DNA of 63,971 nucleotides, the filler included, from Octopus bimaculoides (lineage: Eukaryota): the NCBI RefSeq assembly GCF_001194135.2. It is 7 parts of 6 records of this genome, joined end to end, with 100 filler letters (N's around TTAATTAATTAA, not from the genome) between each part and the next. Parts side by side here need not be neighbours in the genome. Positions count along the whole stretch, not along the records: positions 1 to 8,311 come from NW_026306790.1; positions 8,412 to 12,472 come from NW_026327953.1; positions 12,573 to 34,813 come from NC_068985.1; positions 34,914 to 45,019 come from NC_068981.1; positions 45,120 to 48,511 come from NC_068987.1; positions 48,612 to 56,033 come from NC_068981.1; positions 56,134 to 63,971 come from NC_068983.1. One strand, written 5' to 3'. The position numbers and the translations under genes were made by a program. This document shows, one piece after another, positions 7,560 through 59,924 of the stretch (position 1 is the stretch's first letter; every line of letters starts with the position of its first letter). Below the pieces are notes generated by a model, which was not told where the DNA came from, ran no database searches, and saw only the letters and a program-made list of their open reading frames with translations.

Positions 7560-8125
7560 AATAACTCTGTTGAAAATTGATTTCAAAGTCCCAATAAATA
7601 CATACATAGAGGAACTTAATCTTCCAATACTTACCTTTCCAAAACACAGTTTAAAATTTCTGAATAGAAATCAAATAACATCAACAACAATCCAACTTTA
7701 GCTGAACATATGCTAGTTGGCGACCTAATTCATCTGAAACAAAACAGAAAACTCTGAAACAAAACAGAAACTGATTTTCTCTGTAAAAAATCTCCTGAAT
7801 CTGACACACCTGTATATAAAGTTATTTCCATACTTGATTGAACTCTAGATAATAACACAACTCCCACTATAAACTTACAAAATATTCAACAATAACTTTC
7901 CACCAAATCACACGCTAGAAGCATATTTGCTTCTCATTCTCTTCTGGCTCTCTTTCTATACACCCACTTCACAGATCTACATACACCAAGCCTAATTATT
8001 GTTTCACTCAGCTTCGCCTATGCCTGAGAAACAACTTACTGAAGACTATATCAAGCCAAAAGGAACTCGAATGTGGTACAGTCAAATCAAGGCCAGCAGG
8101 CTGAAACTTTGAAGTCACTGTCATC
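7560..8125 (+). mobile_element. Possible Penelope-like element 3' remnant
   Basis: Weak GIY-YIG-like pieces (TYIEE, TLAEHML) upstream of a decayed hammerhead motif and a (TA)n tract. Confidence 0.3.
8077..8122 (+). ncRNA. Decayed type I hammerhead motif
   Basis: tACAGT-CAAATCA-A-GGCC agca GGCT-GAAA-CTTTGAAG-TC-ACTGTC; helices retained, core degenerate; same 3' half as the motif at 27569. Confidence 0.5.
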
Positions 8126-8311
8126 TTTCTACTCGTAAAGGTTTTATATATATATATATATATAATGTATGTATATATATAGATATATAATGTATGTATG
8201 TATATATAATGTATGTATATTTATATATATTTATATTTATATATGTATATTTATATATATTTATATTTATTTATGTGTGTATATATATATATATATATAT
8301 ATATATATATA

Positions 8312-8411
8312 NNNNNNNNNNNNNNNNNNNNNNNNNNNNNNNNNNNNNNNNNNNNTTAATTAATTAANNNNNNNNNNNNNNNNNNNNNNNNNNNNNNNNN
8401 NNNNNNNNNNN
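8312..8411. other. Artificial 100-bp scaffold spacer
   Basis: 44 N + TTAATTAATTAA (stops in all six frames) + 44 N. Confidence 0.95.
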
Positions 8412-8984
8412 GTGTGTGTGTGTGTGTGTGTGTGTGTGTGTAAATATATGTAGATATATACAAATTTATATGTAAACACACACACACACACACATACATA
8501 CATACATGCGTATATATTTGGACAGAGAGAGAAATTCATACATATATGGAAATGGAAATATTGAATTAGTGCAATATTTTAAATGCATCATAATAGAATT
8601 TACAATTTAATTTCAGAACTTCAAGATACAATCTTGCAAACATTCCAAAGACACACACACACACACACACACACACACACACACACACACACACACACAC
8701 ACACACACACACACACANNNNNNNNNNNNNNNNNNNNNNNNNNNNNNNNNNNNNNNNNNNNNNNNNNNNNNNNNNNNNNNNNNNNNNNNNNNNNNNNNNN
8801 NNNNNNNNNNNNNNNNNNNNNNNNNNNNNNNNNNNNNNNNNNNNNNNNNNNNNNNNNNNNNNNNNNNNNNNNNNNNNNNNNNNNNNNNNNNNNNNNNNNN
8901 NNNNNNNNNNNNNNNNNNNNNNNNNNNNNNNNNNNTATATATATAAAATTTAAGAAGGAATAAATAAAACTAATATATCTTCGG

Positions 8985-10640
8985 TAATATGAAGAAGAAA
9001 TTCGCCCAGGAATATGCTGAATATATCTAAAAATGCATAGTAGAATTCCTGTTGAAAATGTTACACACGCACAGTCATAGAAAGGAGAAAGGGAGGCGGA
9101 GTGAAATAGATAAAAGAAGAGACATAAAATGAAAATTGGTTAACAAAATAATAAGATATCATGTGTATCTAGAGAATGATATCAACAGCTGAGTTATGAA
9201 ATTCAAACCATGAAGATAAAAGACTAGTAAAAATGCGTCTATAGTACTTGTGATGCGTTTGGAAAAAAAGCAATTCAATAACAAATACTGCAGAAGAAGA
9301 TTTCGTATCAGTTAAGATAATAACAAGAAAATATCAAGTAGAAATGATGTTATCAACGACACAGACGGCAATGTTCTTCATGTAGGGAACGATATATAGG
9401 GAATATAGAAAGAACAACGGTAGAAATAATACAAAAAAAGTGCAAGTTTTAATCAAGGAGAAAACTATCAAAATTATCAAAGTCCAAATTATATTACAAA
9501 AGGGAACTTCTAATACTAATCTCTGAAGTTAGCAAAGCAACTACGAACAATCTTTAAATAAATACATATATGAAACAGATAACACTGCATTACAACTTTG
9601 AAAAAAAAAAAGGTGAAATATCTCTAAAACTGTTATACTCTATGTGCAAAAGATATGAAAATATGGACAACTCAAAATCTCTGTACTGAATCAATTTCCA
9701 TTCACTTCCTTTATATGATGACATAAGGCTATGTAAACAGAACGGAGAAACGGTACCGATACATCATAATGGTAAAATCCTATTTGAGATCATTACTGAT
9801 AGAATTTAACTCAAATATGAAAGAGAAATAAGAGAGAAATGATCGGTTTTAGAACGAGATTTGTTATTGTTATTTTTTTTTTTTAATATTCTTCAAATCA
9901 GAGTGCAATTAAGAATTAACAATTATGTTTCAATGACTCTCAAAAGGCATCTGACAAAATTATGAAACCAAATTATGGAAAGTGGTAACAGAAATGAAAT
10001 TCCTTCAGAACGTAATAGAAATTTTAAAATCATTTTGTTCTCAAAAATGTGCAACTGATGAAACTGAGGTGAACTTTACAGTGTGGTTTGTATTTGAACA
10101 GATGTATGACAAGTAACCCTACCTTGCCTTTCTCTATTCAGTATCTCTGTAACAATAAAAATGACGGTACCTCCGGAGTCTCTTAAATGTGTAGTTAAAA
10201 CCCATTGAATAATCGTTGTTAATCTCAAATACATCGATGCTTCTCTCCTTATTGTTGGTAGCTTAGAAGAAGTGACGGTTATAAAGTAGAAAGTGAAAGA
10301 AAATGTAAGGAAATAAGATTTATTACATTTGATAAAAGTGAATCAATGATTAGCTCAGGAACCTACGGCGAAGCTAATCCAACAATGCACGAGAGCCAAA
10401 CAATCCAAGATATGATGGGTTTTTGCTATCTTCGAGATATTAGAAATCGATGCGATGACAAAAAGAAATTAAATGTATTGCAAGTGCACAGTCTGCATTT
10501 ATCGTTTTAAATCGTAGTTAAAAATGTAAATCAATAAGTTCAAAGGCCGAGCAGAAAATCCTGCACAGTTTGATATTTTCAATACTATAGAAATATCAAA
10601 GTGTGCAGTAATTTCAGTTGAATGATGGGCTCTTAAAAAC
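8985..10640 (+). mobile_element. Old RTE/BovB-like LINE, RT region, heavily degenerate
   Basis: Fragments VINDTDGNVL, GEISLKLLYSMCK, CFNDSQKASDKI, KLWKVVTEM..VIEILKSF, NLKYIDASLLIVGSLEE (YADD equivalent), GFCYL. Confidence 0.82.
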
Positions 10641-58194: not shown

Positions 58195-58920
58195 ATATGT
58201 GTATAAGTCCCCTCCAGGGAGATGGCCCTGTTCAATATGTCAGAAGAGTGTTGGTAAAAACTCTGTACGTTGTACTCAGTGCAAGCTTTGGACACATAAG
58301 AGGTGTAGCGGTATCATAGAAAGGTCAACAGAGAAAATAGTCTATGTGTGTGGCAAATATGTGGGTATAATAAGTACTAAAAATGCGCGGATGATAGACT
58401 CCCCTAAACGCTCGGGTGTCATTACAAGTAGCAGAAAGCTTCTGTTACCTAGGCAACCATGTTAGCAGTGGTGGAGAGAGTTCTGAAAGTGTAGTTGCTA
58501 GAATAAGAACGGGCTGGGCAAAGTTCAGGGCGCTTCTACCTTTGTTGGTGACTAAGTGTCTCTTCCCCAGAGTGAAAGGCAAATTGTGTGATGCCTGTGT
58601 ACGTACAGCTATGTTACATGGCAGTGAAACATGGTATTTGAGCACAGAGGGCTTGCGAAGGTTTGAAAGAAATGAAGCTAGCATGCTCCGCTGGATGGGT
58701 AATGACAGTGTGTACATATGCCAGAGTGTAAATGATTTAAGATGAGAATTGGGTATAAGCCGCATCAGATGTGTGCAAGAGAACCCTGCGTTGGTTTGGT
58801 CATGTGATGCATATGGATAAGGACAGCTATATCAAAAAGTACTGAGCTCTAACTGTGGACAGAACCTGTGGAAAGGGTAGATCCAAGTAGACGTAGGATG
58901 AAGAGGTGAGAAAGTATCCC
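58195..58920 (+). mobile_element. RTE-clade LINE 3' ORF fragment with Cys-rich zinc-finger-like insert
   Basis: GRWPCSICQKSVGKNSVRCTQCKLWTHKRCSG..YVCGK, then VAESFCYLG..ARIRTGWAKFRALLPLL..ACVRTAMLHGSETW, LRWFGHVM-like motif, and a GRGRP-like end. Confidence 0.88.
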
Positions 58921-59392
58921 TCTTAAAAAAAACTATCCCTTTTAAAGTTCTTGCCTCTATCAATACATCCATCGATCTAGTAGTTTGCAAGAATTCGCAA
59001 GCACCGTCCTCTAATCCAACAGAACTTTTTGATTAGTGTAGAATGATTAATATCCTGAAGTCTAAACAACAAGAAAATTAATGCAAAAATTGCCTGACGA
59101 AGTATGCGTATCGAATTAATGGGCTCTCAGAAGGTCCTGGATATTATAGATAATATTTATTGATATCCTTTGGATATTGCAAGGTGGTTTCATAAAAATA
59201 CATGTCATGCCGAAACATATGTGGCAATACATTAATTTTAAGTATTTCTCGTTATATATATATATATATATATATATATATATATACCAGAGTAAGCACA
59301 TAAATGTGCAACAAGGTGGAAAAAAGAGTACTCAAATACCAGAAGTAGAGTAATATGCTTTATTTAAAAGCAGCAGAAATATAAAAGCAAAA

Positions 59393-59430
59393 CTGTCCGA
59401 TGAACGGGAACGTGAAACTCCGAGTAACAG
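59393..59430 (+). ncRNA. Minimal type I hammerhead motif, CCGAUGA core variant, at the apex of a ~44-bp hairpin
   Basis: CUGU-CCGAUGA-ACG ggaa CGU-GAAA-CUC c GAG-UA-ACAG. Confidence 0.7.
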
Positions 59431-59882
59431 CTTTTTGTTATATTTCTGCTGTTTTAAATAAAGTATATATATANNNNNNNNNNNNNNNNNNNNNNNNNNN
59501 NNNNNNNNNNNNNNNNNNNNNNNNNNNNNNNNNNNNNNNNNNNNNNNNNNNNNNNNNNNNNNNNNNNNNNNNNNNNNNNNNNNNNNNNNNNNNNNNNNNN
59601 NNNNNNNNNNNNNNNNNNNTAATTTCAGTGGAATCTATCCACTGGTTTTCAGAAATAGAGTTATTAATATTTCTAAGTCTCTCTAAAGGAGACTACGGCA
59701 GCGGTACTGGAAATTAATAGTTATCGCCAAGCCAACATGGCAGTCCCAAAATTAGGACGAAAGCTGCCGTGAATTAGCTCCAAGAAGCCATCGCCTCTAG
59801 CTAGCTATGTGACACACGAAACCTGTGTCCTTTATAACCTTCGAACAGGGGAGGTCAGCAGTGTCCCCCTGCTGGTTTGGCA

Positions 59883-59924
59883 TCTGCAGACTAGTTTCAG
59901 GGTGTTGCCCCTTGTCAATGCAGA
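59883..59924 (-). ncRNA. Minimal type I hammerhead motif, U3-A8 core variant, inside a ~140-bp fold-back
   Basis: UCUGCA-UUGACAA-GGGG caaca CCCU-GAAA-CUAG-UC-UGCAGA: 6-bp helix I, ACUAGU palindromic helix III, GUC site. Confidence 0.75.

What the first reader, a model, noticed from the sequence alone, without database searches (positions are those of the whole stretch)
8077..59924. Several independent small elements each carry a minimal hammerhead, with three different non-canonical cores
Seen: five full hammerhead-like motifs in about 64 kb (a sizeable part of it N), in unrelated flanking sequence. Cores are CUGAUGA (27569), CUGUUGA (28255), CCGAUGA (59393), UUGACAA (59883) and a dead CAAAUCA (8077). 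All have self-complementary helix III and lie near simple AT-rich or dinucleotide repeats. Penelope-like coding remnants occur at 46880-47800 and possibly 7560-8050. Inference: this genome may hold a diverse, abundant population of PLE-mobilised ribozyme elements that canonical-core motif searches would miss. PLE-hammerhead association is known; whether these families and variants are described I cannot check.
Basis: partly seen in the sequence, partly recalled or inferred. Interest (0 to 1): 0.75.

Follow-up and report, generated by a model that had tools for sequence, protein, structure and literature searches.

The report
Penelope retroelement ends with variant hammerheads
Five hammerhead-shaped (self-cutting RNA) motifs in what is likely an octopus genome belong to five repeat families, four of them likely broken-off ends of Penelope-type jumping genes and one a likely small parasite of them; this is a known arrangement, but three families carry a fixed unusual core, and one core predicted to cut poorly sits in a family of over 3,000 copies, with cutting itself untested.

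Summary
All five motifs are real, and each belongs to a genome-wide repeat family. Three odd cores are family-wide, not decay: U3-A8 (59883; 377 pattern matches, 100 of 100 listed), A6U (28255; 3,291 matches, 100 of 100 listed) and U4C (59393; 85 of 100 listed). 8077 is a decayed copy of a family with mostly canonical cores, and it shares its hammerhead with 27569. 28255 is the 3' end of a Neptune-type Penelope-like element (PLE), joined to a GIY-YIG frame in gap-free loci. 59393, 27569 and 8077 have Hydra-type layouts, with inverted arms, tails and (TA)n targets. 59883 lies in a 361/366-nt structured, non-coding, retrozyme-like unit. RNA-seq reads track copy number and show no cut ends. PLE hammerheads, retrozymes, U3-A8 and U4C are published, and this scan noted PLE ends and retrozymes elsewhere in this genome before. 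I did not find natural A6U in print, but could not read the key variant paper (Lünse 2017). Verdict: new variants of a known kind; cleavage untested.

The parts
7490..8143 (+). Family E: old (65-79% identical copies), non-coding 3' end of a likely Hydra-type PLE, ending at (TA)n
   Evidence: homologous copies; no protein match
8078..8121 (+). Decayed type I hammerhead, core CAAAUCA (1 of 25 loci, the window's own; family mostly CUGAUGA/CUGACGA), helix III CUUUGAAG, triplet GUC
27562..27650 (.). Family C: head-to-head inverted junction of two hammerhead-bearing ends
27569..27615 (-). Type I hammerhead, core CUGAUGA, weak helix II, mismatched helix III, triplet AUC; core predicted to be sequestered by the inverted arm
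   Evidence: helix I pair probabilities 0.0
27610..27639 (+). Second, partial hammerhead arm (core CCGAUGA, helix III deleted)
   Evidence: sequence; complete in family copies
28197..28351 (-). Family D: 5'-truncated 3' end of a Neptune-type PLE; 3' part lost in an N gap
28255..28291 (-). Minimal type I hammerhead, core CUGUUGA (A6U), extra A before helix II, helix III ACGU, predicted cut between 28260 and 28259
46880..47620 (-). Decayed Hydra-type PLE coding remnant on a separate scaffold, with no hammerhead found beside it; only 47405-47620 has tool support
   Evidence: tblastn E 3e-7 to 4e-6; Pfam none; no hammerhead here
59286..59465 (+). Family B: fold-back stump in (TA)n; inverted arm 59358-59384 pairs with 59438-59463; extra tail of about 70 nt (59286-59357) on the inverted arm only
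59393..59430 (+). Type I hammerhead, core CCGAUGA (U4C), helix III CUCCGAG, triplet GUA; helices I and III as in Hydra-2_aMil and Hydra-aJap
59620..59999 (-). Family A: 361-nt non-coding structured unit (366 nt in a second variant), 47% GC; 59620-59638 repeats as 59981-59999
59883..59924 (-). Type I hammerhead, core UUGACAA (U3-A8 pair), helix III CUAG, long helix I, predicted cut between 59889 and 59888

Best explanation
The five motifs are hammerhead folds carried by five repeat families, four of them likely 3' ends of Penelope-like retroelements (PLEs) and one a likely non-autonomous retrozyme copied by PLE enzymes. Shown: family membership and abundance, family-fixed cores, fixed 3' ends mostly at (TA)n, variable 5' ends, inverted junctions with a tail on one arm, and a gap-free join of family D to a GIY-YIG frame. 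Inferred mechanism: a PLE GIY-YIG endonuclease nicks (TA)n DNA; an AU-rich stretch near the RNA's 3' end primes reverse transcription; synthesis usually stops early or switches template, leaving short stumps and mirror-image arms. The hammerheads would cut tandem transcripts as dimers through their short palindromic helix III. U3-A8 likely keeps activity; U4C and A6U are predicted to slow it. Family A is copied from a template longer than one unit (an uncut multimer or a re-ligated circle), because most copies run through the cut site and many pass one unit length.
For: Descriptor vs shuffles. Whole-genome pattern counts with reversed-pattern control 0: A 377, D 3,291, B 189. Cores: A UUGACAA in 34 of 34 aligned copies and U3..A8 in 100 of 100 listed; D U6 in 100 of 100 listed and in 9 of 10 GIY-linked copies with a readable core, at 78-98% identity, none with A6; B C4 in 85 of 100 listed. 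D follows a frame with a CxxxCxxC linker and GIY-YIG motif without a gap, clearest in L195, which has no N; Pfam GIY-YIG E 4e-4. The D hammerhead differs at 18 of 259 positions vs 143 of 769 in its flanks over 7 diverged copies (copies are related, so the p-value overstates). B has the helix I and III of published Hydra-clade hammerheads (PMC8557442 File S2). A shared tail motif follows the hammerhead in B 21 of 26, C 5 of 25, E 1 of 10, D 0 of 25, A 0 of 15, background 0 of 3,392. (TA)n abuts D 3' ends in 17 of 19 readable loci and B tails in 21 of 21. A: fold z -7.7, longest ATG frame 28 aa, two preferred 3' starts (unit positions 32-36 and 92-98), inverted junctions, one tandem dimer among the 30 longest loci (L249).
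Against: No cleavage was measured. Rfam gives no hammerhead hit in 59280-60010 or 27560-28345. RNA-seq shows no pile-up of read ends at either predicted cut site, equal directions, and 36-53% of reads running on into unrelated flanks. No compensatory change among 69 predicted pairs in 16 A copies. The Pfam GIY-YIG score (20.9 bits) is under the curated cut-off of 22.6. No coding frame is linked to A, C or E. The one Hydra-frame-to-B join (L302) is probably a chimera: 4 of 4 informative copies of that frame end in a different hammerhead. In local folds the hammerhead helices are weakly populated for D (helix I 0.05-0.06) and absent for C.
Confidence: 0.82

Rival explanations
1. The folds are kept but no longer cut: in these PLE lineages the hammerhead shape serves as a binding or priming signal for the PLE protein, and the variant cores reflect relaxed selection on catalysis.
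For: A6U is fixed in a young, very abundant family; older D copies also carry U4A (3 of 10). The natural A6C variant cleaves at under 0.1 per min (PMC3088659 section 8). The fold region is more conserved than its flanks. Naiad PLEs spread without canonical hammerheads (PMC8557442). 8 of 9 frog retrozyme dimers did not cleave in vitro (bioRxiv 10.64898/2026.07.22.740005). No cut ends in RNA-seq.
Against: G5, G8, A9, GAAA and the A15.1-U16.1 pair are kept in D. Family A keeps the 3-8 pair by a double change, which catalysis would explain. Ordinary RNA-seq is poorly suited to show cut ends.
Confidence: 0.3
2. Family A is an actively expressed circular RNA (retrozyme circle), as in mussels, and its genomic copies are reverse transcripts of that circle.
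For: Unit size, GC and strong fold fit metazoan retrozymes (PMC7229834). Copies exceed one unit and run through the cut site. Contigs of 396 nt (366 + 30) in two other runs close on themselves, though tandem DNA gives the same.
Against: Only 359 and 407 reads of about 12-13 million records. The D:A read ratio (about 9) matches the D:A pattern-count ratio (8.7), as passive read-through predicts (likeness thresholds differed, 90 vs 85). Only 1 dimer in the 30 longest loci. The library preparation is not known, and poly(A) selection would lose circles.
Confidence: 0.3
3. The motifs are chance folds in AT-rich, fold-back repeat DNA.
For: At three core mismatches the shuffles give 1.48 hits on average; no Rfam support.
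Against: At one or two mismatches the shuffles give 0-0.12. The families differ in helix sequence yet keep the topology, and match the published PLE consensus layout.
Confidence: 0.02

Closest known systems
Minimal hammerheads of metazoan Penelope-like elements (Cervera and de la Peña 2014, PMC4209133)
   Same: Type I topology, 4-6 bp helix I, unpaired nucleotide before helix II (C, D, E), tiny or palindromic helix III, mostly solo copies from truncated PLEs, opposite-strand pairs; U3-A8 cores already reported (about 1,300 hits in Schistosoma mansoni).
   Different: No row of the alignment part I read (supplement part 2 of 3) has U6 or C4 or is a cephalopod; here A6U and U4C are fixed in whole families.
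Neptune-type PLE (Craig et al. 2021, PMC8557442)
   Same: Family D: C-terminal GIY-YIG frame with a CX2-5CxxC-type linker, long pyrimidine-rich 3' UTR, hammerhead near the 3' end, (TA)n target.
   Different: Core is CUGUUGA. Clade not tested by reverse-transcriptase phylogeny, and Nematis is not excluded.
Hydra-clade PLE hammerheads (PMC8557442 File S2: Hydra-2_aMil, Hydra-1/2_aJap, Penelope-6/14_HM)
   Same: Family B has the helix I (CUGU/ACAG) and helix III (ACUC-N-GAGU, cut after A) of these; C and E have an ACUU..AAGU-C helix III; (TA)n targets, inverted copies, tail.
   Different: All Hydra rows in File S2 have U4; B, probably C, and a sixth family found here have C4. Hydra-1_oBim in that file has a different hammerhead.
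Metazoan non-LTR retrozymes (Cervera and de la Peña 2020, PMC7229834; Li et al. 2026 bioRxiv 10.64898/2026.07.22.740005)
   Same: Family A: 361/366-nt non-coding unit, GC under 50%, strongly folded, one type I hammerhead per unit, close to the 350-390-bp mussel units.
   Different: Mostly dispersed copies of about one unit with PLE-type inversions rather than long tandem arrays (short-read gaps may hide arrays); U3-A8 core; no sign of an abundant circle in the two RNA runs laid.

Membership tests
PLE minimal type I hammerhead | Type I three-helix topology with GAAA and UH | tested here: met
   helix II only 2 bp at 27569
PLE minimal type I hammerhead | Consensus core CUGANGA | tested here: not met
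   Met for family E and the 27569 copy; not met for A (U3-A8), B (U4C), D (A6U)
PLE minimal type I hammerhead | Short, self-complementary helix III able to pair between two copies | tested here: met
   Self-duplex -1.7 to -7.8 kcal/mol; computed only
PLE minimal type I hammerhead | Located at the 3' end downstream of a PLE frame | tested here: inconclusive
   Met for D; B join probably chimeric; none found for C, E
PLE minimal type I hammerhead | Self-cleavage as a dimer | not testable with these tools
   No cut ends in RNA-seq, which is not a sensitive test
Neptune-type PLE (family D) | C-terminal GIY-YIG with upstream CX2-5CxxC linker | tested here: met
   L195 frame; Pfam E 4e-4, below the curated cut-off
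Neptune-type PLE (family D) | Reverse transcriptase groups with Neptune | not tested
   No RT domain of this family was recovered
Hydra-clade PLE (families B, C, E) | Hammerhead layout of File S2, (TA)n target, inverted copy with tail | tested here: met
   strongest for B, weaker for C and E
Hydra-clade PLE (families B, C, E) | Own Hydra-type frame (CxCX5C linker, no CCHH) | tested here: inconclusive
   Hydra-type frames exist in G000 but end in a sixth hammerhead family in 4 of 4 informative copies
Non-LTR retrozyme (family A) | Non-coding unit of 170-400 nt, GC under 50%, strongly folded, one type I hammerhead | tested here: met
   361/366 nt, GC 0.47, longest ATG frame 28 aa, z -7.7
Non-LTR retrozyme (family A) | Tandem copies with two hammerheads | tested here: inconclusive
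   1 of the 30 longest loci (L249), and its first-listed core differs at position 9; many copies end at assembly gaps
Non-LTR retrozyme (family A) | Abundant circular RNA | tested here: inconclusive
   Low reads that track copy number in 2 RNA runs of unknown preparation

The most novel reading that the evidence does not exclude
A Neptune-type Penelope lineage fixed a catalytically damaging A6U change and still spread to over 3,000 near-identical copies while conserving the rest of the hammerhead fold, and several Hydra-type lineages in the same genome fixed U4C. The PLE hammerhead would then be kept mainly as a structural signal or a deliberately slow switch rather than as an efficient cutter, and these families give ready natural test pairs for the open question of what PLE hammerheads do.
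Probability: 0.25. Interest if true: 0.65.

Novelty: new variant of a known kind. Interest (0 to 1): 0.4.

Why it matters
The role of hammerheads in endonuclease-bearing PLEs is stated to be unclear (PMC8557442). Family-fixed cores in recently active families show which changes a mobile lineage tolerates. Family D pairs a core predicted to be weak with very high recent copy number, so one cleavage assay with a single-base control tests whether cutting matters for spread. Strict-core searches miss at least 3,857 motif matches in this genome's three patterns (377 + 3,291 + 189, less the B copies with U4). Beyond that, the system is an ordinary PLE and retrozyme landscape.

Tried and rejected
Whole-window Rfam scan: swamped by microsatellite miRNA hits; 150 of 217 rows shown, none a hammerhead. 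The repeat finder was uninformative for the same reason. A second, opposite-strand hammerhead in family A (hairpin 59743-59758 followed by GAAA on +): rejected, because it has no core or UH partner and 4 of the 16 aligned copies, the most diverged, lack the GAAA. Copies of A ending at the cut site as a trace of in vivo cleavage: 3 of 30 loci end within 4 nt of it (one at a gap, two at inversion junctions), about what a broad spread of ends gives; not evidence. Covariation in A: none; one search used a structure I had mis-registered and is disregarded. L302 as proof that B ends a Hydra frame: downgraded after (2 of 6 extended loci were uninformative because of gaps). 7490-8050 as coding: no support. 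For 47405-47620, one search found nothing and one search returned two repeat proteins that I judge spurious. The (TA)n count for family A is unreliable (the anchor also hit wrap-around copies); by eye, about 15 of 22 readable flanks are (TA)n. The family C pattern gave 1 match only (C4), too few to fix its master core. No RNA holder was listed as on record; raw RNA runs came by species label. Sequence look-ups of earlier scan notes found nothing for A or D. A direct genome-wide count of family A dimers was not obtained.
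Full report
Setting. The window is a pack of 7 stretches with 8,912 N from a 2.34-Gb, 145,327-contig genome. It is likely an octopus; that rests on recall of repeat content and on earlier scan notes, not on a named record. The five motifs lie on scaffolds C11933, C5 and C3, and the coding remnant at 46880-47800 on C7, so their nearness in the window is no evidence.

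Observation. With helix II of at least 3 bp, hits at up to 1, 2 and 3 core mismatches are 2, 3 and 4, against shuffle means of 0.00, 0.12 and 1.48 (40 shuffles). 27569 needs the helix II rule dropped. Rfam gives no hammerhead hit in the two stretches scanned alone or in the 150 of 217 rows shown for the whole window.

Family D (28255, core CUGUUGA, A6U). The 149-nt query has 40 scored places at 99-100% identity. A 30-nt pattern with positions 6 and 7 free has 3,291 exact matches, control 0, and all 100 listed read CUGUUGA. Copies share a 3' end; (TA)n abuts it in 17 of 19 readable loci out of 25. Their 5' ends vary. Walking upstream leads to a frame with a CxxxCxxC linker and a GIY-YIG motif (Pfam PF01541, E 4e-4, 20.9 bits, cut-off 22.6). 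In 30 loci fetched with that frame, 11 hold the D hammerhead region downstream; L195 has no N at all. Among the 10 with a readable core, at 78-98% identity, 9 have U6, 1 has C6 and none A6; 3 also have U4A. Over 7 diverged copies the 37-nt hammerhead differs at 18 of 259 positions and its flanks at 143 of 769; the copies are related, so this is suggestive only. By the features in Craig et al. 2021 (PMC8557442; passages) this is a Neptune-type PLE end; no RT tree was built.

Family B (59393, core CCGAUGA, U4C). 40 scored places at 84-100%. The pattern has 189 matches, control 0; of 100 listed, 85 have C4, 14 U4 and 1 G4. The U4 and CCAAUGA copies fit CpG decay of a C4 master (inference). Each copy is a fold-back stump: a mirror arm of variable length, a tail of about 70 nt on that arm only, and (TA)n outside. 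That is the inverted-copy-plus-tail layout described for PLEs. Helices I and III match Hydra-2_aMil and the Hydra-aJap elements in File S2 of PMC8557442, where every Hydra row has U4. One locus, L302, joins a Hydra-type frame to B without a gap. However, 4 of 4 informative other copies of that frame, out of 6 extended, end in a different hammerhead, which also has CCGAUGA. L302 is therefore probably a chimera, and B's own frame is not found.

Families C (27569) and E (8077). They share 24 of 29 nt across GAAA, helix III and helix I. C is a head-to-head junction; the window copy has a second arm on + with CCGAUGA and a deleted helix III. Across both arms the cores are CUGAUGA 10, CCGAUGA 5, CCAAUGA 3 and 13 others (biased towards the query), so the 'canonical' core at 27569 may be a CpG-decayed C4. 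The inverted arm is predicted to sequester the core completely. E is old (65-79%); of 25 loci, 6 read CUGAUGA, 4 CUGACGA, 3 CUGACAA, and CAAAUCA only in the window's copy. Its upstream 560 nt show no coding similarity. A tail motif follows the hammerhead in B 21 of 26, C 5 of 25, E 1 of 10, D 0 of 25, A 0 of 15 anchored loci, background 0 of 3,392, which groups B, C and E.

Family A (59883, core UUGACAA, U3-A8). The motif caps a long stem in a 361-nt unit (366 nt in 16 of 34 copies, which duplicate 5 nt of helix III). The unit has 47% GC, no ATG frame over 28 aa and a fold z-score of -7.7. The pattern has 377 matches, control 0; all 100 listed have U3 and A8. In 30 loci chosen by an internal 91-nt query (two overlap), RNA-sense 3' ends cluster at unit positions 32-36 and 92-98, and 27 run through the predicted cut site. 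The longest reach 1.3-1.7 units, inverted junctions are common, and 1 of the 30 longest loci is a tandem dimer (L249). So the template was longer than one unit. There is no compensatory change among 69 predicted pairs in 16 copies.

RNA. Two raw RNA-seq runs with the same species label gave 359 and 407 reads on A and 3,286 and 3,581 on D, out of 12.9 and 12.0 million records. Both directions were about equal, 36-53% ran on into unrelated flanks, and no place collected read ends. The D:A ratio of about 9 matches the pattern-count ratio of 8.7 (thresholds differed), as passive read-through or DNA carry-over predicts. No change at core position 6 of D reached the 5% listing threshold. Library preparation is unknown, so circles and cut ends are not excluded.

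Coding remnant. 47405-47620 has no Pfam hit and no useful protein-database hit. It matches Hydra-type frames in this genome (tblastn E 3e-7 to 4e-6) and by eye the Hydra alignment in the PMC8557442 supplement. It is unlinked to the five motifs.

Mechanism. Shown: families, fixed cores, 3' ends at (TA)n, variable 5' ends, inversions, the D-to-GIY-YIG join. Inferred from known PLE biology: nicking at (TA)n, priming at an AU-rich 3' stretch, early stop or template switch, dimer-dependent cutting through the palindromic helix III. Predicted from published variants: U3-A8 active, U4C slower in vitro but viable in a viroid, changes at position 6 slow (A6C under 0.1 per min) (PMC3088659).

Comparison with print. 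PMC4209133 (main text parts 1-2 of 4; supplement file 2 searched and part 2 of 3 read; file 1 not searchable) describes PLE minimal hammerheads, opposite-strand pairs and U3-A8. PMC7229834 (passages and section 14) and bioRxiv 10.64898/2026.07.22.740005 (parts 1 and 3 of 5, supplements not seen) describe retrozymes and their link to PLEs. PMC8557442 was seen as passages, section 11, supplement searches and part 2 of 59; four family motifs were absent from its stored supplement text, in which long runs are cut. PMC6765202, PMC6155905 and PMC11014351 were seen as passages only. Searches for A6U, CUGUUGA and octopus with hammerhead ribozyme listed no paper on these families or on natural A6U, judged from titles and abstract starts. 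Lünse et al. 2017, on PLE hammerhead variants, was seen only as a reference title, and Repbase and Dfam are not available here, so A6U and U4C in PLEs may already be described.

Earlier scan notes on this genome report retrozyme-like units and fold-back PLE ends, and one on another genome reports a PLE that spread after a core change; these are unchecked notes and count as leads only.

Verdict. Observation confirmed; interpretation supported with the corrections above. Known kind, new families, one core (A6U) not found in what I could read. Interest 0.4.

Noticed in passing
L327:804, L329:792, L330:821, L332 (G000 C16, C21, C3, C9): A sixth hammerhead family, core CCGAUGA (U4C) in 4 of 4 copies, ends a Hydra-type PLE frame directly; U4C thus recurs in several Hydra-type families of this genome.
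   Followed up: partly
window 59887-59894 and L012-L030: Family A has two variants: helix III CUAG (18 of 34) or CUAGUCUAG (16 of 34); both occur in RNA reads and within the one dimer L249. The duplication would allow a 4-bp helix III with a 3-nt loop within one molecule.
   Followed up: partly
runs X17 and X19 (organisms C and D): Contigs of 396 nt hold the 366-nt family A unit with one substitution against the window, under other organism labels; close relatives, mislabelling or transfer were not told apart.
   Followed up: no
L086-L110, about 70-80 nt upstream of the hammerhead: Family D 5' ends cluster sharply here (about 20 of 25 loci, biased by the query; read depth also halves there), suggesting a preferred start or stop.
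   Followed up: no
L302:1450-2780: Probable chimera: Hydra-type frame of one family joined without a gap to the family B end, as a template switch would give.
   Followed up: partly
window 98-1800 (-): Broken LINE-like frames with endonuclease and reverse-transcriptase motifs, RTE-like by recall.
   Followed up: no
window 58157-58831 (+): Cysteine-rich and LINE-like C-terminal fragments, by recall.
   Followed up: no
window 16125-16478 (-): Frame resembling a Helitron replication protein fragment, by recall.
   Followed up: no
window 42140-42478 (-): Frame resembling a Tc1/mariner transposase N-terminus, by recall.
   Followed up: no
window 47770-47850: A 70-nt repeat end with a local inverted repeat matches about 30 other places at 77-90%; family not identified.
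   Followed up: no
window 29871-30089 and 63191-63409; 30575-30979, 7115-7279, 53428-53620: Dispersed SINE-like repeats shared between stretches.
   Followed up: no
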